Below are positions 7,676 to 19,545 of a stretch of 64,000 bases of DNA, one piece after another. Position 1 is the first letter of the stretch, and the number at the start of each line of letters is the position of its first letter. A program made the position numbers and the translations under genes. The notes under the pieces are model-generated. The model was not told the DNA's origin. It was given only the letters and a program-made list of their open reading frames with translations, and ran no database searches. This DNA is from Alphaproteobacteria bacterium (GTDB lineage Bacteria; Pseudomonadota; Alphaproteobacteria; JAOXRX01): positions 10,006-74,005 of the forward strand of contig JAOXRX010000039.1 of assembly GCA_025800285.1 (NCBI GenBank), given 5' to 3'.

Positions 7676-9011
7676 ATATTGCGATACCTTTTACAATTTC
7701 AATAGATCTGTTTAATTGATAATCATCTTTTTTATCACCAGAATTATCTTTGTTTTTAGGGTTTTTATCTTTTTTTTCACCCTTTTCTGGATTTTTAAGA
7801 GCCCCCTTCAAATCAGCTTCTTCTATTAGATATTTCTCCCAATCATTCTCTTTTTCTTTAAGCTCTTCATTTTTAATTTCGATATCTGGATCTATACCAA
7901 GAGCTTGTATAGAGTGTCCACTTGGAGTGTAATATCTTGAAGTTGTCATTTTTACAGCTGTTTTACCATTAACTAAAGGATAGATTGTTTGCACTGACCC
8001 TTTACCGAAAGATTTTGTTCCAACTATTACAGCTCTTTTATGATCCTTAAGAGCACCAGCAACAATTTCTGATGCAGAAGCAGAGCCTTGATTTATAATA
8101 ACAACTATTGGTTTTCCATTTGCTTTATCTCCATTTGCAGCAAAAAACTTCATATTATCAACAGAATCTCTACCTTTTGTTGAAACTATCTCGCCACCAT
8201 CTAAAAATGCTTCTGAAACAGCTATTGCCATAGTTAAAAGCCCTCCAGGGTTATTTCTTAAATCTAAAACATACCCATCAACATTAGCTCCAATTTCATC
8301 AAAAGCGGTTTCTAGCTCTGATTTAGTTTTTTGACTAAAAGTTGCAACTCTTATATATCCAATATTATCTATAACATCGCTTTTTACAGAGTCTATATTA
8401 ATTATATCTCTAACGATTTTAACATCTCTAGGTTCTCCTTTTAAACCTTGACGAACTGTAAGTGTGATATCTGTACCAGGCTCTCCTCTCATTCTATCTA
8501 CTGCATCATTTAAATCTATACCTATAATAGCTTCACCATCCAGATGAGTTATAAAATCACCGGACATAATACCTGCTTTTTGAGCTGGAGTATCATCTAT
8601 AGGAGAAACAACTTTTACAACCTCATCCTCTGTTGTAATTTGAATACCTAAACCACCAAACTTTCCAGAAGTTGAAACTTGCATATCTTCTAGCTCTTTT
8701 TCATCCAAGAAAGATGAGTGAGGATCCAAAGATTTAAGCATACCATCCAAAGACAAATCTATTATCTCTTTATATGTTTTTTCATCTACATATCTTTGTT
8801 TAACAAGAGATAAAACTGCTTCAAACTTTTCAAGTTGTTTATAAGCATCTTGGAGTTCATCATAAGTCATGACCATGCCCTTTGGAGCATTATCTACTTT
8901 TTTTGTTTCTAATTTTTTATTATTTGCTGTTGCATTATAACCGCTAATCATTATAGCGATAAAAAACACGAAAAATCTTTTCATAAAAACTATCCTATCC
9001 CTGAAATTCAT
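7620..9011 (-). CDS. ctpA: carboxyl-terminal processing protease (S41 family)
   Basis: PDZ segment (GGLGIQIT), S41 catalytic region VLDLRNNPGGLL and GSASASEIVAGAL. Confidence 0.9.
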   Translation of the reverse strand: MNFRDRIVFMKRFFVFFIAIMISGYNATANNKKLETKKVDNAPKGMVMTYDELQDAYKQLEKFEAVLSLVKQRYVDEKTYKEIIDLSLDGMLKSLDPHSSFLDEKELEDMQVSTSGKFGGLGIQITTEDEVVKVVSPIDDTPAQKAGIMSGDFITHLDGEAIIGIDLNDAVDRMRGEPGTDITLTVRQGLKGEPRDVKIVRDIINIDSVKSDVIDNIGYIRVATFSQKTKSELETAFDEIGANVDGYVLDLRNNPGGLLTMAIAVSEAFLDGGEIVSTKGRDSVDNMKFFAANGDKANGKPIVVIINQGSASASEIVAGALKDHKRAVIVGTKSFGKGSVQTIYPLVNGKTAVKMTTSRYYTPSGHSIQALGIDPDIEIKNEELKEKENDWEKYLIEEADLKGALKNPEKGEKKDKNPKNKDNSGDKKDDYQLNRSIEIVKGIAIYAKQNDYKEADKKVEDVK

Positions 9012-10531: not shown

Positions 10532-11095
10532 CTACAAGTTAAAAAATTTAGCTATCATATAAAGATCTGTCATATTGCCGTCAATTAGAGCTGTATTCTT
10601 TTGACATCCCTCAATTTCAAAACCATATTTCTTATATAATCTTATAGCCTTTTCATTATAAGTTCTAACCGAGCCCTCTAATCTCTTTATTCCTGATTTT
10701 TCACAATGAGCAATTATTTCACTCATAAATTTGCTACCTAATCCAACTCCCCAATAATCTTTAACAATCATAGTTGCAAAATTAGAAATATGTTCCAACC
10801 ATGGATGCAATGGAGAAACCTGAGTTAATCCAATTAAACCCACAATATTTTCAGTTTTTTCTTCAATAGCAATAATTATGGAAGATATTTCTGCCTCATT
10901 ATGTTGTTTCCAAACTTGTAATATTTTTTCATCTGGAGCTTCTGGTCGTAATGGAGTTTGATTTGTAAAAGTTGTTTCTTCACCAATTACTTTGATAAAT
11001 TCTCTGAATTTTGGCAAATCTTCCGGCTTAGGACTACGGAGAATAATCTCCCTACCATCTTTTAACTTATACTTTTCTGCTTTATATTCTGACAT
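10532..11095 (-). CDS. GNAT family N-acetyltransferase
   Basis: 187 aa; GNAT acetyl-CoA binding region WGVGLGSKFMSEIIAHCEKSGIKRLEGSV. Confidence 0.7.
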   Translation of the reverse strand: MSEYKAEKYKLKDGREIILRSPKPEDLPKFREFIKVIGEETTFTNQTPLRPEAPDEKILQVWKQHNEAEISSIIIAIEEKTENIVGLIGLTQVSPLHPWLEHISNFATMIVKDYWGVGLGSKFMSEIIAHCEKSGIKRLEGSVRTYNEKAIRLYKKYGFEIEGCQKNTALIDGNMTDLYMIAKFFNL

Positions 11096-11235: not shown

Positions 11236-12690
11236 TTAGCTCTTTTTATTTTTTAACTTTAAATCACATTTACATATATCTGAAACCCTAAGCAAATCTA
11301 AATCAGACCATTTAACAAAACCTTCTAATAAAGAATAGCTATCTATACCTTTATTTGCATAATATTTGGCAATCAAATAAGACAGCTCTCCATATTCACA
11401 ATAAAATAGCACTCGGCGACCTTCCCATTTAGCCAAATATTTTTGATGGTTATTTATTAGCTCATCCTCAAGTATGTTAACACTATTAGGCAGTCTAGAG
11501 TGAACAAATTTATCATTATTTCTAACATCAACAATAATATTTCTCGTATTTATATCCATACTCTTAAACTTTGAAGTTGAACTTTCATATATTGTTTTTA
11601 TAGTTTTTTGAGGAGATATAGATATTTTTTTATTTTCTTTACTATAATTAAAAGTAATTTTATTTTCAGCAATTAATAATTCTTCATTTATTATTTTCGG
11701 AAATTTATTTCTAGGTAGACACTTGAAATATGTATCTAAATATGGAAAGGGAGAATCACATCCTATAAATACAACATTTATTCTACCTTGTTTATTTCTA
11801 ATTTTATCCAATAAATTATTTCTTTTAAGTTTCATTATATATTTAAGAGTTCCCGCTAGATTAAAACCAGAGCTTGGTCCTAATAATAATCCAGATCTAC
11901 ATAACTCTAAGCTTCTTAAATAGGAGTCATATGTGCTTACATCTATTATTTCATCTATATCCTTTTTCCAATCAAAATCAATCATTCTCAATAAGCCTAG
12001 AGTTCTTGGTCCAGATATTATGTTGTTAGGTTTTCTTACTATTCCAGATATTTTTAAATTTGGTAATTTTTCTTTAAGGTATTTAGCGCAACCAACCATG
12101 CTTCCTGTTGTTCCTAATCCAGTAGAAAATATTTGTATATCTCCATTTAATTGTTCATAAATTTGAGGTGCTGTAATTTTATAATGTGATTCAGGGTTGT
12201 TTTTATTGCTGTATTGATTCGGGTTAAACCATTTTTTTCTTTTCCCCATATTTTTAGCTATTTGAATTCCAGAGCTTAAATCACTTGGATCTGGACATAA
12301 AGGCTCATTATTAGCTTGCACTTCAGCCCCTGATAATAAGAGCATTTGTAATTTACCGATAGAGGTATCTTTTGCTGAAATAAGCACTCTAGTTTTTTTG
12401 AACCCAAAAATTTTAGATAATATACTAAGAGAAAATGCCGTATTTCCTGAAGAATTCTCAATTATATTATGTTCTTCTAACTTTTTATGTTTATCCAACA
12501 TATTATAGGATGGTATAGACTTTACATTCATTAATGGAGTAAAACTTAACATCTTTACAAACACATGAACTTCATCATTGTAAAAAGGATTTAACTCTTC
12601 TGGTATCTCGATTAATGGAGTAACATGGTTTTTAGGATTTAAAAAATCCTGCACTCCTTTTTTCCCTTTAAATACATTGTCTGATATCAT
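11236..12690 (-). CDS. PLP-dependent cysteine synthase-like enzyme fused to a C-terminal rhodanese domain
   Basis: N-terminal 330 aa align motif-by-motif with CysK/CysM (PLP-Lys region FVKMLSFTPLMNVKS, SGNTAFSLS, Gly loop STGLGTTGS); C-terminal 110 aa is a rhodanese fold with active-site loop FYCEYGELS. Confidence 0.65.
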   Translation of the reverse strand: MISDNVFKGKKGVQDFLNPKNHVTPLIEIPEELNPFYNDEVHVFVKMLSFTPLMNVKSIPSYNMLDKHKKLEEHNIIENSSGNTAFSLSILSKIFGFKKTRVLISAKDTSIGKLQMLLLSGAEVQANNEPLCPDPSDLSSGIQIAKNMGKRKKWFNPNQYSNKNNPESHYKITAPQIYEQLNGDIQIFSTGLGTTGSMVGCAKYLKEKLPNLKISGIVRKPNNIISGPRTLGLLRMIDFDWKKDIDEIIDVSTYDSYLRSLELCRSGLLLGPSSGFNLAGTLKYIMKLKRNNLLDKIRNKQGRINVVFIGCDSPFPYLDTYFKCLPRNKFPKIINEELLIAENKITFNYSKENKKISISPQKTIKTIYESSTSKFKSMDINTRNIIVDVRNNDKFVHSRLPNSVNILEDELINNHQKYLAKWEGRRVLFYCEYGELSYLIAKYYANKGIDSYSLLEGFVKWSDLDLLRVSDICKCDLKLKNKKS

Positions 12691-12702
12691 ACCATATCCT
12701 TT

Positions 12703-13200
12703 TTATAAATTTATTTTTTCTTCACCATTTTTCATATTATTTTTATGTTCTTCGCTGCGCTTTATTTTACCATCCTCATTATACCATATAACTAAACCAT
12801 TAGTTTCTCCATTAATTAAATTTGCTTCATATTTTAAATTACCATTTTCATAATATTCTATATATTTACCATCTAACTCTCCATTTTTACAGCTATGAGT
12901 GAATTCAATTTGCCCACTTTTATAATATCCTGTTTTATTATCACACAAGGTATTTAAATAAATGTTATGAGATTTAAGTTCTCCACTTTTATAGTATTCT
13001 TTGATGGTTGAATATCCTTTTTGATTATTTTTATAGAAGGTGTCTGAATCTACTAATTTATCTTCTAAAAAATATTCCTTATTTTTTATATAAGTTTCTT
13101 CATATGCTCCCATTAATAGAAATGCAGGTATCATTATAAATGTCGTGAATATTACGGATATAATAACATATATTTTTTTAAAAATTCTTGTTTTATTCAT
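12703..13200 (-). CDS. membrane-anchored MORN-repeat protein (YwqK-like)
   Basis: N-terminal TM helix followed by repeated YYxxGxLK / YxENGNLKYE MORN units as in the YwqK family. Confidence 0.6.
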   Translation of the reverse strand: MNKTRIFKKIYVIISVIFTTFIMIPAFLLMGAYEETYIKNKEYFLEDKLVDSDTFYKNNQKGYSTIKEYYKSGELKSHNIYLNTLCDNKTGYYKSGQIEFTHSCKNGELDGKYIEYYENGNLKYEANLINGETNGLVIWYNEDGKIKRSEEHKNNMKNGEEKINL

Positions 13201-13460: not shown

Positions 13461-13820
13461 TTAATTTATGATAATACCAATGATATATCCTAGAGTAATT
13501 AGTACAAAATATAATATTCCTAATATAAAGCATGAAAATAATATTGAATATTTTTTAGCCAAAGAGTTTTTATAATTAAAAAACATGGGGATTATTCTTA
13601 TAAAAATTAAAGAATAGATTAGTGTAATTATTATTGTAAAAGTTAATAATATTCTATATTCATTTATAGAATCACATTTTAAACAATATGGATTAATATT
13701 AAATAAATTTAAATTCCAAAAAATAATTTGGCAAATAGATATAATAGCATATCCAACCCAACCCAATATGAATATTGCGTTGGGAATTAACTCACTCTGT
13801 ATTATGTTTTTTATTTTCAT
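13461..13820 (-). CDS. small 4-TM membrane protein, candidate immunity protein for the upstream toxin
   Basis: 119 aa, four hydrophobic helices, starts 4 nt after the stop of the Tlde1-like gene. Confidence 0.45.
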   Translation of the reverse strand: MKIKNIIQSELIPNAIFILGWVGYAIISICQIIFWNLNLFNINPYCLKCDSINEYRILLTFTIIITLIYSLIFIRIIPMFFNYKNSLAKKYSILFSCFILGILYFVLITLGYIIGIIIN

Positions 13821-13823
13821 GTT

Positions 13824-14504
13824 TTAATATCTTACTCTTAATTCTAATTCAGTATCGTATTCTTCAAAAACATCAAGAAACTCAGACATGCTTCCTGCTA
13901 AGTCGATACAACCAGATGAACCAAAGGAAGTTCCGCCATGTATAGAAAAACCATCTCTTCCTTTCATATCATTTTCCTTATCTGGAGTCAACCATATTCT
14001 CTCGTTACCCCAAGAATCTTCTCCACCTGGCCAACTAGTATATCTTTTAATAAAAGAATAATCTTTTCTCCTTTGAACATTACTAGGAGATATCGTGTAG
14101 GTTCCTGCTGGTAAAGGTCCTTTGTTTTTTACCCCAGTAAACTCTTCTCCTTGATAATCTTCTTTTCCAGACATTGCATAACAAGCATCTACAACAGTTT
14201 TATTTTCCATTAAAGCTAAAGCAGTGCCATCAAATGTTAAATAAACTTCTATGTTTTCAATATAGCATTTGCAATTTGGATGAACAGGTAGTTTGGGTAT
14301 GCCTTCAACTTTAGTGTATGTTGTGCCATCAAGTGAAGCACAATTTTCACAAACTTTACTTGTATCGCCTTTAGTATTGTGTATTTTCCACTTTTTAATA
14401 TTTTTACCTGCTTGAGGTGTTTGGTTGGGAGTATCGCTACTGCTTCTAACAGCTCTGCCTGTGGCGTCATAATTTATATTGTCTCTACCGAATGCTCTAG
14501 TCAT
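13824..14504 (-). CDS. polymorphic-toxin-like protein: phage MuF C-terminal remnant (HPNCKC) fused to a Tlde1/DUF2778-like L,D-transpeptidase-fold domain
   Basis: KVCENCASLDGTTYTKVEGIPKLPVHPNCKCY resembles the Phage_Mu_F C-terminal signature; GPLPAGTYTI ... RDGFSIHGGTSFGSSGCIDL matches the YkuD-fold His/Cys catalytic arrangement; own SD aaggag and an upstream terminator. Confidence 0.55.
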   Translation of the reverse strand: MTRAFGRDNINYDATGRAVRSSSDTPNQTPQAGKNIKKWKIHNTKGDTSKVCENCASLDGTTYTKVEGIPKLPVHPNCKCYIENIEVYLTFDGTALALMENKTVVDACYAMSGKEDYQGEEFTGVKNKGPLPAGTYTISPSNVQRRKDYSFIKRYTSWPGGEDSWGNERIWLTPDKENDMKGRDGFSIHGGTSFGSSGCIDLAGSMSEFLDVFEEYDTELELRVRY

Positions 14505-14567: not shown

Positions 14568-15017
14568 TTAAGAAAAATGTACAATCTCAATATCAGTAAA
14601 GTATTTTTGTAAATATTCTGCTAGCAACCTGCGATGGCAATATTTAGGTTTATCTTCATAACACATTAGACAAGCATTATTTAAATTTATATCTTTAAAA
14701 ATATCAATAATATCTCTTTGTTTGATTAAGTCAATATAATCTGTTTCATATTTCTCCCAACGAACAGAAAAAGGAGCATTGCCTCTTTTTATATTCTCAA
14801 ATATTTCAATACTAGGAGCACACTCTATTTTGTGCTTATAATCTATTTTATAATATGCAAGACATTTATATAGTTCTTTCTTGCTCGCATATCCATATTT
14901 AGAGTTTGTATTCTTTAAACGAATATCTATTAAAGATTTTACTCCTGCTTTTTTAAGTAAAGAGAAAAATTCATCAGCTGATTTATTTTCAAAACCTATA
15001 GTGTATAATTTAATCAT
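14568..15017 (-). CDS. DUF488 family protein
   Basis: N-terminal TIG...SLIDIR and C-terminal LMCYEDKPKYCHRRLLAEYL patterns typical of DUF488. Confidence 0.65.
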   Translation of the reverse strand: MIKLYTIGFENKSADEFFSLLKKAGVKSLIDIRLKNTNSKYGYASKKELYKCLAYYKIDYKHKIECAPSIEIFENIKRGNAPFSVRWEKYETDYIDLIKQRDIIDIFKDINLNNACLMCYEDKPKYCHRRLLAEYLQKYFTDIEIVHFS

Positions 15018-15482: not shown

Positions 15483-15536
15483 TTTTATAAATGGCGAACT
15501 CGACAGGATTCGAACCTGTGACCTACTGCTTAGAAG
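15483..15536 (-). repeat. direct repeat of the 3' 45 nt of tRNA-Arg plus 9 nt of flank (attR-like remnant)
   Basis: 54 nt identical to 19460-19513; truncated, so not a functional tRNA. Confidence 0.85.
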
Positions 15537-15837
15537 CAGAGACAGCTTTAAAGAAATAAATCAACTAAAACAAAGTCTTAGCTAGACACACAAATCCTTT
15601 CAAAGACACTTTCGTTTTATTAATTGTTGCTAATCATTGCTATTTGTTGCCTATTATTGTCCTCCAGATGCTACCCACTTTGCTACCCATTTTATATACG
15701 ACTAACTGTTATAAAAACAGTCAGTCACAGAAAATTAAAGAAACAAATATACATTAAACAACTCTTTTTAATGCTTAGTATATTTAATATTAAAAAAGAA
15801 GGGCTTTTAAAAGCCCTTCTAAAAACAATAATAAAAT

Positions 15838-16080
15838 CTATTTTTTTATTTTATCACTTTTTTCTCGGTTTGCTTCCCAATGAAGAGGTTGTAAATTTCT
15901 AATATTATTAGAACCACCTTTGGACTTAGGATGCTTATGATCCACTTCCCAACCATACTCACCTAAAGTTCCATATGAAGGTTTTCTAATTTTATTGCCG
16001 TTAGAATCTCTTCTCCAAACATCTGGGTTTTTTCCTCTTATAGGCTTACCTTTATCCCAAATATTGTCTATTTTAGACAT
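15838..16080 (-). CDS. small HNH endonuclease
   Basis: EVDHKHPKSKGGSNNIRNLQPLHWEAN, an HNH motif with conserved His/Asn. Confidence 0.65.
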   Translation of the reverse strand: MSKIDNIWDKGKPIRGKNPDVWRRDSNGNKIRKPSYGTLGEYGWEVDHKHPKSKGGSNNIRNLQPLHWEANREKSDKIKK

Positions 16081-16143
16081 AGTTAAGTTCCCTTTCTTGA
16101 AAATACTTAGTCTAATGGGCAGAATATAATTCTACCCATAGCT

Positions 16144-16392
16144 TTACATAACTCTTTTATAATTATAGATATCTCTTATATGGTTATGAAAAAATTTACC
16201 ATGAGATGATGCATTCATTAAATCTTTAAAAAGATTTTCAGACACACCATAATATTGGTAAACACTATTATTGTGAAAACCAACTTCAAGGATATTTCTA
16301 TCATAACCAATATCATTAATCATAGAAGATTTTACATACTTTCTAGTCATCATGTATCTCCATATTATTGAGCATTTTAACCACACACTCAA
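16144..16392 (-). CDS. KTSC domain-containing protein
   Basis: 82 aa; pattern YDRNILEVGFHNNSVYQYYGVSENLFKDLMNASSHGKFF typical of KTSC domains. Confidence 0.55.
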   Translation of the reverse strand: MSVWLKCSIIWRYMMTRKYVKSSMINDIGYDRNILEVGFHNNSVYQYYGVSENLFKDLMNASSHGKFFHNHIRDIYNYKRVM

Positions 16393-16604
16393 TTATTAAC
16401 TTGACAAGGGTGTATAAGCATGATACTATCAAGTTCTCTCGTCTCGATAGGTTAAACCTTATCATTCGAATTTGAAGTCGCCATGTTAGTAGCATGTCGG
16501 CTTCTTTTAATATTGAAACACAACAAATCTTTCAATATTATTTCTTTATATCACCTTTATATCATTAAGTCAACTATAAAACTATTTTTTTATTAACTGT
16601 TAAC

Positions 16605-16997
16605 CTAACTATTAAGATTAGAAACAACTTTACTGTTTCTTACTTTTTTACTTTCTAAATCTATTTCTATCCAACCCCTCTCATCTATTCTTGTGTCAAA
16701 ATAACTTGTTTTTTCAGGCATTATATTAAAACAATTAAAAAAACTTTTTGCTGCTATATTAGCTCCATAAGCCCCCTTTCTTATTTTAATAGCTCCCTCA
16801 GCTGTTTTATCATTTAACATTTCAATACCTATCTTTTTACATTCTCTATCATAATACAAAACAACATAAGAATAATTATCTATTAAATATTTCTTTCTAG
16901 AACCTTGGTTCAAACCTATATTTCCATTTGTATTTACCGAACACCTCGGAGAAAAACTACCTCCAACTTGTGTAAATTTTTGATAAGCCATAATCAA
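16605..16997 (-). CDS. hypothetical protein (130 aa)
   Basis: ORF co-oriented inside the islet between the methyltransferase and KTSC genes; no recognisable motif. Confidence 0.4.
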   Translation of the reverse strand: MIMAYQKFTQVGGSFSPRCSVNTNGNIGLNQGSRKKYLIDNYSYVVLYYDRECKKIGIEMLNDKTAEGAIKIRKGAYGANIAAKSFFNCFNIMPEKTSYFDTRIDERGWIEIDLESKKVRNSKVVSNLNS

Positions 16998-17097
16998 CCT
17001 CCTTGCAAAATAAAAGACTATAAAAATAGTTATATACTATTTTTATAGTCTTGTCAAGCAGTTTACATCACTTAATACACCCAGTTAATAAACCACA

Positions 17098-18351
17098 CTA
17101 AAACAACTCCCCTTGTTTATCTGTGATAATTTCTTCTTTTTCTATAATCACATCTTCTATATCAAACTTTTTATCTAACATAGCTATTAAACACCTACCT
17201 ATATGATATCCTAAATTAACAGGGACTGCATTGCCTATTTGTTTATATTGAGCACACATAGAACCTTTAAACTCCCAATAATCTGGAAATGTTTGTATTC
17301 TTGCATATTCTCTAACATTTAATGGTCTAGTTTCCTCGGGATGACATCTTTCAGTTTGTTTCTGAGCTGGAGAACAAGTTAAAGTTAAACTAGGTTCATC
17401 CCATGACAACCTTCTAGCCATTCCTGTTCTTCCCCCCGTATGATAAAAACTTTTTCCCATATATTCTTTTTGAACTTCTTCAGGCAAATCTCTCCAACAC
17501 CCTCCTGCAGGAACTTGTTTTAAAACTTTATATTTCTTCTCGGGATATTTTTGTCCTTCAGACTTAGGACAATCTTTTAAAGCTTCCCTCATAGAAATTG
17601 TATAATCTTTTTCTTTTGGAAATATAAAAGGTATATTTAAGTCTTCTCTTATAACTATTATTATCAACCTTTCCCTTTTTTGAGGAACATCTAAATATTG
17701 AGATCTTAATACTTTATAATGAACTTTGTATCCCAATTCCCTTAATGCATTACACATTGTTTTTAATGTTTTACCATTATCATGTCTTAAAAGACCTTTA
17801 ACATTCTCTCCAACCGCAATTTTAGGATTAGTTTCTTTGATACATCTTGCAAATTCAAAAAACAAAGTTCCTCTTGTATCTTCAAACCCCATACTTTTAC
17901 CAGCATAACTAAATGTTTGACAAGGGAATCCTGCTTGCACTATATCAACTTTATTTCTATATTCTTTAAAATCAAGATTTCTAACATCTTCATGAACTAT
18001 GTTAGCATTAGGAAAATTAAATCTTAATGTTTCAACCGCACTTTTATCTATTTCATTTAATAATAAATGATTTAAGCCTGCATTTTCAAATCCTAAAGAA
18101 GTTCCTCCCGCTCCTGCAAAAAGTTCTATTATATTATAGTCTGTTTTTATATTACTTTTTAAAATTTGAAAATTATTATCATTAGAAACTCCATTTAATT
18201 TAGAATTTAATCTTTGCACTTCCTCCAAATCAAAAACTCTATAATTTTTCTCATCTCTTTGAGATTTTATAAGACCTTTTTTATCCCATCTTCTAATTGT
18301 ATCTACAGAGACTTCTAATTCTTCACTTACCTGATGAACTGTTAAATTCAT
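17098..18351 (-). CDS. DNA (cytosine-5)-methyltransferase with an N-terminal MerR-type HTH (SsoII/Eco47II-like architecture)
   Basis: motif I ELFAGAGGTSLGF, motif IV GFPCQTFSYAGK, motif VI VGENVKGLL; N-terminal 45 aa form an HTH (VSVDTIRRWDKKGLI). Confidence 0.85.
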   Translation of the reverse strand: MNLTVHQVSEELEVSVDTIRRWDKKGLIKSQRDEKNYRVFDLEEVQRLNSKLNGVSNDNNFQILKSNIKTDYNIIELFAGAGGTSLGFENAGLNHLLLNEIDKSAVETLRFNFPNANIVHEDVRNLDFKEYRNKVDIVQAGFPCQTFSYAGKSMGFEDTRGTLFFEFARCIKETNPKIAVGENVKGLLRHDNGKTLKTMCNALRELGYKVHYKVLRSQYLDVPQKRERLIIIVIREDLNIPFIFPKEKDYTISMREALKDCPKSEGQKYPEKKYKVLKQVPAGGCWRDLPEEVQKEYMGKSFYHTGGRTGMARRLSWDEPSLTLTCSPAQKQTERCHPEETRPLNVREYARIQTFPDYWEFKGSMCAQYKQIGNAVPVNLGYHIGRCLIAMLDKKFDIEDVIIEKEEIITDKQGELF

Positions 18352-18448
18352 TATTTCAACTCCTTTAAAAAATAAAATTCATTACTATAAATTATATATA
18401 GCAATACCCATTGCATAATGCAAGGGTTATTTTATATTTTTATAAATT

Positions 18449-19171
18449 TTATTGAAATGCTCTATCAAAAAGCTCTTTAAACAAAGGGTCTTTAATGATT
18501 TTCTTTTTATCATTTTTAACTATATCAGATATTATATGAGGCAAAACATTGTATAAGTCATAGATAGCATTCTTATCTCCAGTTGCTATTTCATAAAAAG
18601 TAGCTCCATCAATTTCTCTAATATTTTTATTCTTAGGTCTTCTTTTCCCTGCTTTTCTATTATCAGATGGAGTAAATTCTTTATCAAATCTCTTTTTAGT
18701 TAATATGGCAACATAATAAGCAACATATCCTTCATATTTAGACTTAGTTAGAGATTTTAAATCATCATATATTGCAACTTTATGATTACCTTTTGTAGTG
18801 TTAAATTTATTTTTAATTTCAGCTATAATTTTTTTATCTTTATTTACTAAATCTGCCACTCCTCCAGTTTTTAAGTCTTTCCAACCAATTACTCTTCCTA
18901 GAATCTTTTGATGAAAATTGCCAATAGCATTCTGCAAACTTTTTTGGATTTGTCTTGATTTTTCAGTAGCTAACCATTCTTCTAAAGACATCTTATGAAA
19001 AGAAGCATCAAATAAAGCAGAAAAAGGATCTACAATATTAGAATGCAAATCTTTTTCTATATCTTTAGATTTAACTTCTAAAACATCAACTATCTCCTGA
19101 CATAATTCATATAAATCTTTTTCACTAATCCATTTAAGTTTTTTCATAAATAACCACCTTAATTTAAACAT
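18449..19171 (-). CDS. putative type II restriction endonuclease (PD-(D/E)xK), partner of the adjacent methyltransferase
   Basis: GGVADLV ... IIAEIKNK gives a D...EIK nuclease core; immediately upstream of the methyltransferase in the same orientation; gene sizes (240/417 aa) resemble Eco47II/Sau96I-type systems. Confidence 0.5.
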   Translation of the reverse strand: MFKLRWLFMKKLKWISEKDLYELCQEIVDVLEVKSKDIEKDLHSNIVDPFSALFDASFHKMSLEEWLATEKSRQIQKSLQNAIGNFHQKILGRVIGWKDLKTGGVADLVNKDKKIIAEIKNKFNTTKGNHKVAIYDDLKSLTKSKYEGYVAYYVAILTKKRFDKEFTPSDNRKAGKRRPKNKNIREIDGATFYEIATGDKNAIYDLYNVLPHIISDIVKNDKKKIIKDPLFKELFDRAFQ

Positions 19172-19468
19172 ACTTATGTGTTTATCACTATATATTTAAA
19201 AAATCAAGTTTTTTAATTGCACCAATTTTGCACTATGACTGACTGATAGTTTTTCAGATAACCTGCAACAGCTAACACATTAAAATATAACAATATTATT
19301 GTAACATACTGCCATAATAAATTATATTTTTGAAAAAAACATCGTTGAAAGCTACTGTCACAAAGAGTTTGCAAGTTTGCTACCCACCTATAAAATCACT
19401 ATTTTTTAAACTTAAATTTAAACAAATAAAAAACCCGTCAAAGCTAGTGCTGACGGGGTTTTATAAAT

Positions 19469-19545
19469 GGCGAACTCGACAGGATTCGAACCTGTGACCT
19501 ACTGCTTAGAAGGCAGTTGCTCTATCCAGCTGAGCTACGAGTCCT
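19469..19545 (-). tRNA. tRNA-Arg (anticodon TCT)
   Basis: 77 nt cloverleaf folded by hand; anticodon loop cttctaa; CCA encoded; followed by a terminator hairpin. Confidence 0.85.

What the first reader, a model, noticed from the sequence alone, without database searches (positions are those of the whole stretch)
11236..12690. Cysteine-synthase-like PLP enzyme fused to a C-terminal rhodanese domain
The first ~330 residues align motif-by-motif with CysK/CysM: PLP-lysine region VKMLSFTPLMNVKS versus AKLESFNPSFSVKCR, SGNTAFSLS versus SGNTGIALA, and Gly loop STGLGTTGS versus AGVGTGGT. The last ~110 residues form a rhodanese fold with a Cys-containing active-site loop (FYCEYGELS). A covalent fusion suggests direct channelling of persulfide sulfur into an aminoacrylate intermediate, for example for cysteine-persulfide or thiosulfate-dependent cysteine synthesis. 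The gene sits in an accessory tract next to a toxin cassette, not with cysE or other sulfur-assimilation genes. No cysE is visible in the window.
Basis: partly seen in the sequence, partly recalled or inferred. Interest (0 to 1): 0.6.

Follow-up and report, generated by a model that had tools for sequence, protein, structure and literature searches.

The report
Cysteine-synthase-like enzyme fused to rhodanese
The gene really does encode a vitamin-B6 (PLP) enzyme of the cysteine-synthase type joined to a sulfur-transfer (rhodanese) domain, but it belongs to a fairly widespread, uncharacterised bacterial family whose only studied relatives are fungal enzymes that make carbon-nitrogen bonds, so a sulfur-channelling role is plausible but unproven.

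Summary
Observation confirmed. ORF 11236-12690 (-) encodes 484 aa with Pfam PALP (22-286) and Rhodanese (376-462). The PLP lysine K57, the SSGN loop, Q159, the phosphate loop, S273 and the rhodanese Cys431 are conserved.

It is not a plain CysK/CysM: it scores about one third of the NCBIfam cut-offs. The fusion is not rare: about 140 clusters at 50% identity, mostly Patescibacteria and uncultured Alphaproteobacteria. Its closest solved relative is fungal aspergillomarasmine A synthase (8H4H/8H4Q). Like Fda4, that enzyme uses O-phosphoserine to form C-N bonds, not C-S bonds.

New here: full-length bacterial members share three cysteines. These are C132 in a loop beside the CysK active-site 'GM' motif, C431 in the rhodanese, and C473 in a disordered tail. 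C132 is lost when the rhodanese is absent and is Gln in AMA synthase.

Rivals are C-N chemistry and a metal or Fe-S site; most relatives sit in an operon of Fur-family regulator, CooC-like ATPase and this gene. The window's clade lacks those partners and has an unusually acidic rhodanese loop.

The gene sits beside mnmE at the stable edge of a variable island. No cysE is present. Interest is moderate.

The parts
11236..12690 (-). Complete ORF, 484 aa: PLP (fold-type II, CysK-like) domain, linker, rhodanese domain and Cys-bearing tail
   Evidence: ORF; Pfam PALP + Rhodanese; 99% identical P0001 in an Alphaproteobacteria MAG; homologues of about 490 aa
11833..12627 (-). PALP domain as delimited by Pfam (residues 22-286); family conservation continues to about residue 345
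   Evidence: conserved CDSPFPYLxxYF block up to about residue 322; AF2 pLDDT mostly above 85
12520..12522 (-). Codon of K57, the predicted PLP Schiff-base lysine
   Evidence: Invariant in 190/190 family sequences and in AMA synthase; aligns with K51 of M. tuberculosis CysM; codon verified
12439..12453 (-). S80-S81-G82-N83-T84, the substrate-carboxylate ('Asn') loop
   Evidence: S80, S81, G82 and N83 are invariant in the bacterial family; AMA synthase has S at position 83
12295..12297 (-). Codon of C132 in the family-specific 'EPxCPxP' loop, which is an insertion relative to CysM and aligns beside the CysK 'GM' (Met119) pocket residue
   Evidence: Cys in 159/160 full-length members, 0 of 28 true short forms, and Gln in AMA synthase; position relative to CysK/CysM; Met119 lines the OASS-A pocket (PMC3805590)
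12004..12036 (-). R219...R229 mobile loop (VRKPNNIISGPR), a candidate binding site for an anionic substrate or leaving group
   Evidence: R229 invariant in all classes including AMA synthase; R219 in 158/160 full-length members; low pLDDT at 223-227; equivalence to MtCysM R220 is inconclusive
11305..11565 (-). Rhodanese domain (residues 376-462)
   Evidence: 46.2 bits against 22.2; aligns to single-domain rhodaneses; D388-x-R390 invariant
11380..11400 (-). Rhodanese active-site loop C431-E-Y-G434-E-L-S437 (CxxGxxS, GlpE-type length, but net charge -2)
   Evidence: C431 in 159/160, G434 in 158/160; the loop charge is -2 or -1 only in the window's 12-member clade, and +1 to +3 in 123 of 148 other members
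11272..11274 (-). Codon of C473 in the disordered C-terminal tail (L-P-R-x4-C motif; the window has L467 instead of the near-invariant P467, and a second Cys at 475)
   Evidence: C473 in 155/160 full-length members, R468 in 153/160; pLDDT below 50 for residues 474-484; tail profile
12703..13200 (-). Upstream MORN-repeat protein (165 aa), 12 nt from the PALP start and probably co-transcribed; no demonstrated functional link
   Evidence: conserved only in the near-identical strain
10532..11095 (-). Downstream GNAT N-acetyltransferase (187 aa), weakly similar to amino-acid-analogue acetyltransferases (ArsN1a/PRK10140, far below cut-offs); the link is speculative
   Evidence: not recurrent next to homologues elsewhere

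Best explanation
The gene encodes a beta-substituting PLP enzyme of the CysK/CysM superfamily. It belongs to the specific branch that also contains fungal aspergillomarasmine A synthase, and it is fused to a C-terminal rhodanese.

Shown: all residues needed to bind PLP and to form the alpha-aminoacrylate intermediate from an O-activated serine are intact. The rhodanese has its catalytic Cys in a six-residue CxxGxxS loop.

Inferred mechanism: the PLP domain eliminates the leaving group of O-phosphoserine (the donor used by the closest characterised relatives) or of O-acetylserine. The nucleophile is delivered through a relay of three co-conserved cysteines, in three steps:
1. Sulfane sulfur is picked up as a persulfide on the rhodanese C431.
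2. It is passed to C473 on the flexible C-terminal tail and/or to C132 on an inserted loop at the mouth of the PLP site.
3. It attacks the aminoacrylate, giving cysteine after reductive release, or cysteine persulfide.

This would be formally like the protein-persulfide chemistry proposed for SepCysS, and like the CysO-thiocarboxylate/CysM system. In most relatives (Patescibacteria and others) the enzyme is encoded in an operon of Fur-family regulator, CooC-like ATPase and PALP-rhodanese. The window's alphaproteobacterial clade has lost these partners and acidified the rhodanese loop, so its sulfur donor may differ from thiosulfate.
For: Domain architecture and catalytic residues.

Cys-triad conservation: C132 in 159/160, C431 in 159/160 and C473 in 155/160 full-length members.

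Covariation:
- True rhodanese-less short forms have N/A/D/Q or a gap at position 132 (0 of 28).
- AMA synthase has Q132 and Q468.
- Among 50%-identity representatives, 45 of 51 rhodanese-bearing clusters have C132 against 9 of 89 rhodanese-less ones, and most of those 9 are fragments. The uncorrected Fisher p is about 5e-21.
- A distant (28-34% identity) two-domain group of about 440 aa also keeps C132 and C431.

Position of the cysteines: C132 lies in an insertion relative to CysM and aligns beside the CysK 'GM' motif, whose Met119 lines the OASS-A pocket. C473 is in a tail that AF2 predicts to be disordered, as expected for a swinging arm.

Similarity to CysK: the Asn loop keeps the CysK-type N83, unlike AMA synthase, which has S.
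Against: - No biochemical data exist for any bacterial member.
- The closest characterised homologues (AMA synthase, Fda4) form C-N bonds and need no sulfur donor. AMA synthase nevertheless keeps the rhodanese-position Cys, so Cys conservation alone is not proof of sulfur transfer.
- The window clade's loop C-E-Y-G-E-L-S carries net charge -2, which is unfavourable for binding anionic thiosulfate or stabilising a persulfide.
- The family's conserved neighbours (CooC-like metallochaperone ATPase with a C-x-H motif, Fur-family regulator, ArsP-type permease) point to metals rather than to sulfur assimilation.
- No sulfur-assimilation genes are nearby in any locus examined.
- Distances between the three cysteines and PLP could not be measured, because model coordinates are not exposed by the tools.
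- The covariation statistic is not corrected for phylogeny.
Confidence: 0.4

Rival explanations
1. C-N bond-forming beta-substitution enzyme, like AMA synthase, Fda4 or SbnA. The aminoacrylate from O-phosphoserine is attacked by the amine of an amino acid, giving an N-(2-amino-2-carboxyethyl) amino acid. That product would be a metallophore (aminopolycarboxylate) or a precursor of 2,3-diaminopropionate. The rhodanese domain would be structural or regulatory.
For: The best solved homologue over the whole length is AMA synthase: E=5e-72 for the single sequence, 7.9e-127 for the profile, and 39% identity over the PLP domain. Fda4 has the same architecture and does OPS + L-Ala chemistry. R229 is conserved with AMA synthase. 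Fur-family regulation in relatives would fit a metallophore; AMA is a Zn metallophore (PMC8829947, listed). A GNAT lies next to the gene, as fda5 lies next to fda4.
Against: AMA synthase differs at the positions that define the bacterial family: N83S, C132Q, R219T, R468Q. The strict co-conservation of three cysteines is unexplained by C-N chemistry. No oxidoreductase of the SbnB or Fda3 type and no exporter is adjacent in the window. The GNAT is not a recurrent neighbour.
Confidence: 0.2
2. The three cysteines form a metal, metalloid or Fe-S binding site bridging the two domains. The site would be loaded by the CooC-like ATPase in most lineages. It could deliver a metal-bound hydrosulfide (as in 3-Cys [4Fe-4S] tRNA sulfurases), or make the enzyme metal-regulated or metal-dependent.
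For: 43 of 48 non-alpha full-length loci have a P-loop ATPase of about 325 aa directly upstream, often overlapping, and it is fused in P0099 and probably in P0125. That ATPase is closest to the Ni-insertase CooC1 (3KJE, E=4e-14). Its conserved C133-Y-H135 aligns on the CooC1 CxC metal motif. A Fur-family regulator is adjacent in 30 of 48 loci. Short forms sit in arsR-arsD-arsA-(gene)-MIP operons. ArsP_1 permeases occur near 4 loci. Exactly three Cys is the classical As(III) or [4Fe-4S] ligand count (established knowledge).
Against: The ars-linked short forms lack all three cysteines, so the triad is not the arsenic link. The window's clade keeps the triad but has no ATPase, Fur or ars neighbours. 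A ligand set drawn from a rhodanese catalytic loop, a disordered tail and a PLP-domain loop is unusual. No metal-binding His or Asp partner was identified.
Confidence: 0.2
3. Sulfur mobilisation in the reverse direction. The PLP domain beta-eliminates sulfur from cysteine or cystine (desulfhydrase or thiocysteine-forming), and the rhodanese and tail cysteines carry the resulting sulfane sulfur to acceptors such as Fe-S assembly or tRNA thiolation.
For: CysK-fold enzymes catalyse cysteine beta-elimination; for example the H2S-producing Fn1220 is among the best PDB hits. The family is enriched in genome-reduced Patescibacteria that are not expected to synthesise amino acids (plus general knowledge). 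A relay-type Cys arrangement is present. An Mrp/NUBPL-type Fe-S carrier ATPase lies 1.5 kb upstream in L001.
Against: Beta-elimination from cysteine yields sulfide (S2-), not the S0 needed to persulfidate a rhodanese. There are no Fe-S assembly or thiolation genes nearby in the window. No precedent is known to me.
Confidence: 0.1
4. An ordinary housekeeping O-acetylserine sulfhydrylase (CysK/CysM) that merely carries an extra domain. A variant of this reading is that the Cys pair is only a redox switch.
For: The general CysK fold and catalytic residues are present. JGI annotators call relatives 'cysteine synthase'.
Against: Scores are about one third of every CysK/CysM/cysKM NCBIfam cut-off. 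The protein forms a separate family with AMA synthase. There is no cysE. The location is accessory and variable between genomes.
Confidence: 0.05

Closest known systems
Aspergillomarasmine A (AMA) synthase, Aspergillus oryzae (PDB 8H4H apo, 8H4Q with O-phosphoserine; Guo et al. 2020 ACS Catal 10:6291, cited in PMC12751119)
   Same: Same two-domain architecture: CysK-like PLP domain plus C-terminal rhodanese-like domain. It is the best full-length match by sequence and by fold (E=5e-72; profile 7.9e-127; Foldseek E=1.5e-39; 39% identity in the PLP domain). It shares K57, Q159, the G-T-x-G loop, R229, S273, the CDxPxPY block and a Cys at the rhodanese active-site position.
   Different: It is fungal and forms C-N bonds (OPS + L-Asp, then toxin A). 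It has S for N83, Q for C132, T for R219 and Q for R468, and it has no aligned tail Cys. No sulfur chemistry is reported for it.
Fda4 of the Fusarium poae fusadapamide cluster (PMC12751119)
   Same: Described as a PLP-dependent 'cysteine synthase'-family enzyme with a rhodanese-like domain. It uses OPS, and it is clustered with an N-acetyltransferase (fda5), as the window gene is followed by a GNAT.
   Different: It condenses OPS with L-Ala (C-N) on the way to L-Dap, and it works with the oxidoreductase Fda3, which has no counterpart in the window.
CysM/CysK O-acetylserine (or O-phosphoserine) sulfhydrylases, e.g. E. coli CysM (2BHS) and M. tuberculosis CysM (3DKI/3DWG)
   Same: Same fold and catalytic residues: Foldseek TM 0.8-0.87 on the target, hhalign probability 99.6%, 27% identity. 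MtCysM receives its sulfur from a protein-bound donor (CysO thiocarboxylate), which is conceptually like the proposed relay.
   Different: These enzymes are single-domain. The window protein scores far below the curated cut-offs. The 'EPxCPxP' loop is an insertion relative to CysM. No CysO/MoeZ or CysE partner was seen.
SbnA (staphyloferrin B; TIGR03945) and CapA cysteate synthase (NF053679)
   Same: OPS-dependent CysK-fold beta-substitution enzymes with comparable similarity (106 and 89 bits).
   Different: Both scores are far below the cut-offs. Neither has a rhodanese domain or the Cys triad.
GlpE/PspE-type single-domain rhodaneses
   Same: Same fold, catalytic Cys position and six-residue CxxGxxS loop; D-x-R motif present.
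   Different: The rhodanese here is fused to a PLP enzyme. The loop of the window clade is acidic rather than basic. The GlpE equivalog score is 18 against a 102-bit cut-off.
SepCysS (Sep-tRNA:Cys-tRNA synthase): a mechanistic analogy only
   Same: A PLP enzyme that converts a phosphoseryl moiety via a dehydroalanyl intermediate, using sulfur carried on its own conserved cysteines. This is from my own knowledge and was not tested here.
   Different: It has a different PLP fold type (I), a tRNA-bound substrate and no rhodanese. It is not homologous in the relevant sense.

Membership tests
CysK/CysM O-acetylserine sulfhydrylase (NCBIfam TIGR01136/TIGR01139/TIGR01138/NF008735) | PLP Schiff-base lysine, (T/S)SGN(T) substrate loop, Gly-rich phosphate loop, Ser to the pyridine N | tested here: met
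   K57, S80-S81-G82-N83-T84, G193-T194-T-G196 and S273 are invariant
CysK/CysM O-acetylserine sulfhydrylase (NCBIfam TIGR01136/TIGR01139/TIGR01138/NF008735) | Score at or above the curated family cut-off | tested here: not met
   115.7 vs 344.15 (cysKM); 99.9 vs 350.95 (cysK); 94.0 vs 394.2 (cysM); 104.1 vs 413 (CysM PRK11761)
CysK/CysM O-acetylserine sulfhydrylase (NCBIfam TIGR01136/TIGR01139/TIGR01138/NF008735) | Single-domain protein of about 300-320 aa working with serine acetyltransferase CysE | tested here: not met
   484 aa with a rhodanese domain; no cysE in the 64-kb window; the rest of the genome is not visible
AMA-synthase-like PALP + rhodanese-like enzymes (PDB 8H4H/8H4Q; Fda4) | Two-domain architecture with full-length homology | tested here: met
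   Full-length best hit by sequence, profile and fold; 39% identity over the PLP domain
AMA-synthase-like PALP + rhodanese-like enzymes (PDB 8H4H/8H4Q; Fda4) | Residues at positions 83, 132, 219 and 468 as seen in AMA synthase (S83, Q132, T219, Q468 in window numbering) | tested here: not met
   The window and the bacterial family have N83, C132, R219 and R468
AMA-synthase-like PALP + rhodanese-like enzymes (PDB 8H4H/8H4Q; Fda4) | O-phosphoserine donor and amino-acid amine nucleophile (C-N bond formation) | not testable with these tools
   Requires enzymology; R229 is shared with AMA synthase, but the MtCysM R220 equivalence is inconclusive
Catalytically active rhodanese (Pfam PF00581; GlpE/PspE type) | Domain score above gathering; catalytic Cys at the start of a six-residue CxxGxx[ST] loop; D-x-R motif | tested here: met
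   46.2 vs 22.2 bits; C431 aligns on the catalytic Cys of HP1203 and others; C431 in 159/160, G434 in 158/160, S/T437 in 156/160, D388 and R390 conserved
Catalytically active rhodanese (Pfam PF00581; GlpE/PspE type) | Electropositive active-site loop that binds thiosulfate and stabilises the persulfide | tested here: not met
   Window loop E-Y-G-E-L has net charge -2; 123 of 148 non-alpha family members have +1 to +3
Catalytically active rhodanese (Pfam PF00581; GlpE/PspE type) | Thiosulfate:cyanide or thiol sulfurtransferase activity | not testable with these tools
   Needs an assay
SbnA family (TIGR03945) | Score at or above the equivalog cut-off; partner SbnB-type dehydrogenase | tested here: not met
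   106.3 vs 349.95 bits; no SbnB-like neighbour
CysO-dependent CysM (M. tuberculosis type) | Arg220-equivalent for OPS binding; adjacent CysO sulfur carrier and MoeZ/Mec | tested here: inconclusive
   The hhalign places the R220 loop in a gapped region. No ThiS/MoaD-like or E1-like gene is among the annotated neighbours at 10.5-19 kb, but small ORFs were not exhaustively profiled.
Bacterial 'Cys-triad' PALP-rhodanese family (uncharacterised; defined here) | EPxCPxP loop Cys, rhodanese CxxGxxS Cys and C-terminal (P)R-x4-C tail Cys | tested here: met
   C132, C431 and C473 are all present in the window protein; the window has L467 instead of P467
Bacterial 'Cys-triad' PALP-rhodanese family (uncharacterised; defined here) | Operon with a CooC-like P-loop ATPase and a Fur-family regulator | tested here: not met
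   Absent from the window and from its 12-member clade; present in 43/48 (ATPase) and 30/48 (Fur) other full-length loci

The most novel reading that the evidence does not exclude
The bacterial Cys-triad PALP-rhodanese family would be a self-contained, protein-persulfide-dependent cysteine (or cysteine-persulfide) synthase. A rhodanese Cys, a swinging C-terminal Cys and an active-site-loop Cys would relay sulfane sulfur directly onto a PLP-aminoacrylate. Ancestrally the enzyme would be serviced by a CooC-type metallochaperone ATPase under Fur-family control, and it would be a principal route to cysteine or persulfide in Patescibacteria. The window's clade would be a derived, partner-free version with an acidic rhodanese loop that uses a different donor.
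Probability: 0.3. Interest if true: 0.75.

Novelty: new variant of a known kind. Interest (0 to 1): 0.5.

Why it matters
If the relay reading is right, this would be a previously undescribed way of making the C-S bond of cysteine or cysteine persulfide: intramolecular persulfide delivery in a CysK-fold enzyme. It would be widespread in Patescibacteria, which are thought to lack amino-acid biosynthesis, and in uncultured host-associated Alphaproteobacteria.

It would also give a function to the unexplained rhodanese-like domain of the AMA-synthase/Fda4 enzymes, which are of interest as biocatalysts and as the source of a metallo-beta-lactamase inhibitor.

If the rival C-N reading is right instead, these genes mark single-enzyme aminocarboxylate (metallophore-like) synthesis in bacteria.

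Either way, the gene should not be annotated as plain 'cysteine synthase'. For this particular window the finding is one intact member of that family with no informative partners, so its value is mainly as an entry point to the family.

Tried and rejected
- **Literature for PDB ids 8H4H/8H4Q:** no paper found. The entry's identity came from the Foldseek descriptions instead.
- **Literature on bacterial CysK-rhodanese fusions, Patescibacteria, and ars-operon cysteine synthases:** nothing relevant.
- **PMC9506716 (Cys1a alternative cysteine pathway):** no rhodanese is involved, so it is not relevant.
- **OPS specificity via M. tuberculosis CysM Arg220:** the loop aligns with a large gap, so the result is inconclusive.
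- **GNAT and MORN neighbours as functional partners:** they recur only in the near-identical strain. The GNAT scores 53 bits against the 170-bit ArsN1a cut-off. Rejected as evidence.
- **Small Cys-rich secreted protein upstream in 4 of 7 alpha-clade loci:** not present in the window.
- **cysE or a second CysK/CysM in the window:** none.
- **Riboswitch or other RNA element near the gene:** none at Rfam gathering thresholds.
- **Promoter and terminator scan:** uninformative in this AT-rich DNA, and no terminator lies between the MORN gene, the PALP gene and the GNAT gene.
- **AFDB fold search:** the library was unavailable.
- this used a wrong column offset (the window row did not read K/N/C/R/C). 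It was discarded and redone.
- **Cys-Cys and Cys-PLP distances:** they could not be measured because model coordinates are not exposed.
- **Arsenic-binding role for the triad:** rejected as a general explanation, because the ars-linked short forms lack all three cysteines.
Full report
**1.
The ORF listing gives one intact 484-aa ORF at 11236..12690 on the minus strand. Pfam finds PALP (residues 22-286, E=2.7e-36) and Rhodanese (376-462, E=6.7e-12), both well above their gathering scores. In an alignment of 25 diverse homologues the following are invariant: K57, S80-S81-G82-N83, Q159, G193-T194-x-G196, S273, the rhodanese D388-x-R390, and C431-x-x-G434. In 190 family sequences K57, SSG, Q159, G193/T194, R229 and S273 are conserved without exception. 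C431 aligns on the catalytic Cys of single-domain rhodaneses such as HP1203. An AlphaFold2 model built on the alignment is confident (mean pLDDT 84.9). It has three weak stretches: 223-227, the interdomain linker around 352-354, and the last eleven residues.

**2. It is not a plain CysK/CysM, and the fusion is not rare.**
Every NCBIfam cysteine-synthase model matches at about one third of its cut-off; for example cysKM scores 115.7 against 344 bits.

- A word-indexed search found 798 homologues with E<=1e-10. Nearly all of the best 120 are PALP+Rhodanese proteins of about 490 aa. They come from Alphaproteobacteria MAGs, many Patescibacteria/CPR lineages, Verrucomicrobia and an archaeon, and are annotated only generically.
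- A scan of one genome per GTDB species found at least 539 encoding loci.
- An exhaustive HMMER scan of 1.84 billion 50%-identity representatives found 140 clusters with E<=1e-30.

The family is therefore real, moderately large and uncharacterised in prokaryotes. The literature searches found nothing on it.

**3. The closest characterised relatives make C-N bonds.**
The top PDB match, far ahead of all CysK/CysM/CBS/SbnA entries, is a 525-aa 'Rhodanese domain-containing protein', 8H4Q/8H4H (E=5e-72 for the sequence, 7.9e-127 for the family profile). Foldseek identifies it as aspergillomarasmine A synthase, in apo form and in complex with O-phosphoserine. According to PMC12751119 and bioRxiv 10.1101/2025.10.30.685158, AMA synthase condenses OPS with L-Asp and then with toxin A. 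[quoted passage not shown] So the same architecture is already known, but with C-N rather than C-S chemistry. AMA synthase retains a Cys at the rhodanese active-site position ('ILCYNGDTA'). Conservation of that Cys by itself therefore does not prove sulfur transfer.

**4. New evidence bearing on the channelling idea: a co-varying cysteine triad.**
Besides C431, two further cysteines are almost universal in full-length bacterial members.

- C132 sits in an 'EPxCPxP' loop and is Cys in 159 of 160 members.
- C473 sits in the C-terminal 'P-R-x4-C' tail and is Cys in 155 of 160 members.

The family also contains short forms of about 350 aa that lack the rhodanese domain and tail. None of the 28 true short forms has a Cys at position 132; they have N, A, D, Q or a deletion. 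The two apparent exceptions are truncated full-length sequences. AMA synthase has Gln at 132 and Gln at 468.

Among the 50%-identity representatives:

- 32 two-domain clusters carry all three cysteines.
- A distant two-domain group of about 440 aa (28-34% identity) keeps C132 and C431.
- Five rhodanese-bearing clusters have Q132 as AMA synthase does, and four of them keep C431.
- About 80 rhodanese-less clusters have no Cys at 132.

The uncorrected 2x2 association has p of about 5e-21. This figure is inflated by shared ancestry, but the pattern holds in at least three separate lineages.

C132 lies in an insertion relative to M. tuberculosis CysM. For that comparison I recalled the reference sequence from memory and verified that it is identical to PDB 3DWG. 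In the alignment to the CysK-type Fn1220, C132 falls beside the conserved 'GM', whose Met119 lines the OASS-A pocket next to Gln142 and the PLP phosphate (PMC3805590). C473 sits in a tail predicted to be disordered.

Together these results are what one expects for a relay from the rhodanese Cys, through the tail Cys and/or the loop Cys, into the PLP site. The placement of C132 at the active-site mouth is an inference from alignments. I could not measure distances because model coordinates are not exposed by the tools.

**5. Genomic context in relatives points to metals, not sulfur assimilation.**
I clustered the neighbours of 83 loci.

- **ATPase partner.** 43 of 48 non-alpha full-length loci have a P-loop ATPase of about 325 aa immediately upstream, frequently overlapping the start codon. 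It is fused to the enzyme in P0099 (829 aa) and probably in P0125 (765 aa).
- **Nature of the ATPase.** It is closest to the nickel-insertion ATPase CooC1 (3KJE, E=4e-14). Its conserved C133-Y-H135 aligns on the metal-binding C-x-C of CooC1.
- **Regulator.** A Fur-family regulator is adjacent in 30 of 48 loci.
- **Short forms.** In Rhodobacteraceae and Hyphomicrobiales they lie in arsR / arsD-arsA-(gene)-MIP-aminotransferase clusters. ArsA scores 848 bits against a 650-bit cut-off, and ArsD has E=1e-41.
- **Permeases.** ArsP_1 permeases occur near four loci.

This motivates a rival explanation in which the triad binds a metal, a metalloid or an Fe-S cluster. Against it, the ars-linked short forms lack the triad.

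**6. The window's gene belongs to a derived clade.**
A neighbour-joining tree places it with 11 other sequences, all or mostly from alphaproteobacterial MAGs (organism names). This clade has neither the ATPase nor the Fur gene. Its contexts vary widely: AhpC and nitroreductase in one locus, Fe-hydrogenase genes in another, restriction-modification genes in a third.

Uniquely, its rhodanese loop is acidic. C-[EQD]-Y-G-E-[LTK]-S has net charge -2 or -1, whereas 123 of the other 148 members carry +1 to +3. The window protein additionally has L467 where Pro is almost invariant, while its 99%-identical relative P0001 has Pro. The acidic loop argues against thiosulfate as the donor in this clade. 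This is the main reason I keep confidence in the relay mechanism at 0.4.

**7. Local setting.**
The gene order is ctpA - mnmE - GNAT - PALP/rhodanese - MORN, followed by an immunity-like TM protein, a Tlde1/YkuD toxin and a DUF488 protein. The near-identical strain keeps MORN-PALP-GNAT-mnmE-ctpA and the toxin pair, but has different genes beyond them.

A perfect 54-nt direct repeat (15483-15536 and 19459-19512, the second copy overlapping the 3' end of tRNA-Arg) delimits a 4-kb insertion. That insertion carries an Eco47II-like endonuclease, a Dcm methylase, an HNH protein and a KTSC protein. The PALP gene is outside that element.

GC content is 22-28% across 11-14 kb, against 30-34% in the housekeeping flank. 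GNAT and MORN are not recurrent partners.

**8. Verdict.**
The protein is a member of an uncharacterised bacterial branch of the AMA-synthase-like PALP-rhodanese enzymes. That branch is distinguished from both CysK/CysM and AMA synthase by a co-varying cysteine triad.

My confidence in each reading is:

- Cysteine relay delivering sulfur to the aminoacrylate: 0.4.
- AMA-type C-N chemistry: 0.2.
- Metal or Fe-S site: 0.2.
- Reverse sulfur mobilisation: 0.1.
- Ordinary CysK: 0.05.

I class it as a new variant of a known kind, of moderate interest (0.5).

Noticed in passing
window 15483-15536 and 19459-19512 (element about 15537-19458): A perfect 54-nt direct repeat whose second copy overlaps the 3' end of tRNA-Arg(TCT). 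It bounds a 4-kb insertion that carries an Eco47II-like restriction endonuclease (18449-19171), a Dcm C5-methylase with a MerR-like N-terminus (17098-18351), an HNH protein (15838-16080), a KTSC protein (16144-16392) and a 130-aa ORF. No integrase is visible.
   Followed up: partly
window 13824-14504 (-) and 13461-13820 (-): A Tlde1/YkuD-domain toxin with a weak Phage_Mu_F-like N-terminus, followed by a 119-aa multi-TM protein that looks like its immunity partner. The pair is conserved in the near-identical strain (L089 7074-8018), although the surrounding genes differ.
   Followed up: partly
L005 7034-8008, L008 7027-8016 and 41 other loci; fused in L004 1400-3889 (P0099): A conserved operon in Patescibacteria and others: Fur-family regulator, then a CooC-like P-loop ATPase of about 325 aa (deviant Walker A GKGGxGKT, conserved C-Y-H-N on the CooC1 CxC motif, plus an 80-aa C-terminal extension), then PALP-rhodanese, often with overlapping stop and start codons. 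I found no literature on it.
   Followed up: partly
L061, L063, L064, L066, L067, L069, L070, L072, L075, L077, L086: Rhodanese-less short forms of the same PLP family lie inside arsenic-resistance clusters in Rhodobacteraceae and Hyphomicrobiales MAGs (ArsR, ArsD, ArsA, MIP channel, and a class I/II aminotransferase of 397 aa). In four loci the arsA stop adjoins or overlaps the PLP gene start. In Acidobacteria the short form is paired with a group II pyridoxal decarboxylase. I found no description of a CysK-like ars gene.
   Followed up: partly
window 7957-8261 (+): An Rfam hit to Rickettsia sRNA47 (Rp_sR47) lies just above its gathering score (61.1 vs 60 bits), antisense to the ctpA-like protease gene. 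It may only reflect conserved coding sequence, but it hints at a Rickettsiales-related lineage.
   Followed up: no
window 11290-11292 (residue 467) and 11266-11268 (residue 475): The window protein has Leu at position 467, where Pro is found in 146 of 148 other members and in the 99%-identical P0001. It also has an extra Cys two residues after the conserved tail Cys (C-K-C).
   Followed up: no
L002 7677-7949, L011 5522-5800, and the equivalent positions in L012 and L016: A small Cys-rich protein of about 92 aa with an apparent signal peptide lies 37-52 nt upstream of the PALP-rhodanese gene in 4 of 7 alpha-clade loci. It has no Pfam match and is absent from the window.
   Followed up: partly
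P0171, P0172, P0174 (617-922 aa) and P0168 (600 aa): Long proteins in which the short PLP module is the C-terminal part of a much larger polypeptide (the match starts at residue 220-570). The N-terminal domains were not examined.
   Followed up: no
window 14568-15017 (-): A DUF488 protein (with a hit to the active DUF488-N3a subclade) sits between the toxin cassette and the old tRNA-Arg attachment repeat. A strong terminator-like hairpin follows it at 14555-14536.
   Followed up: no
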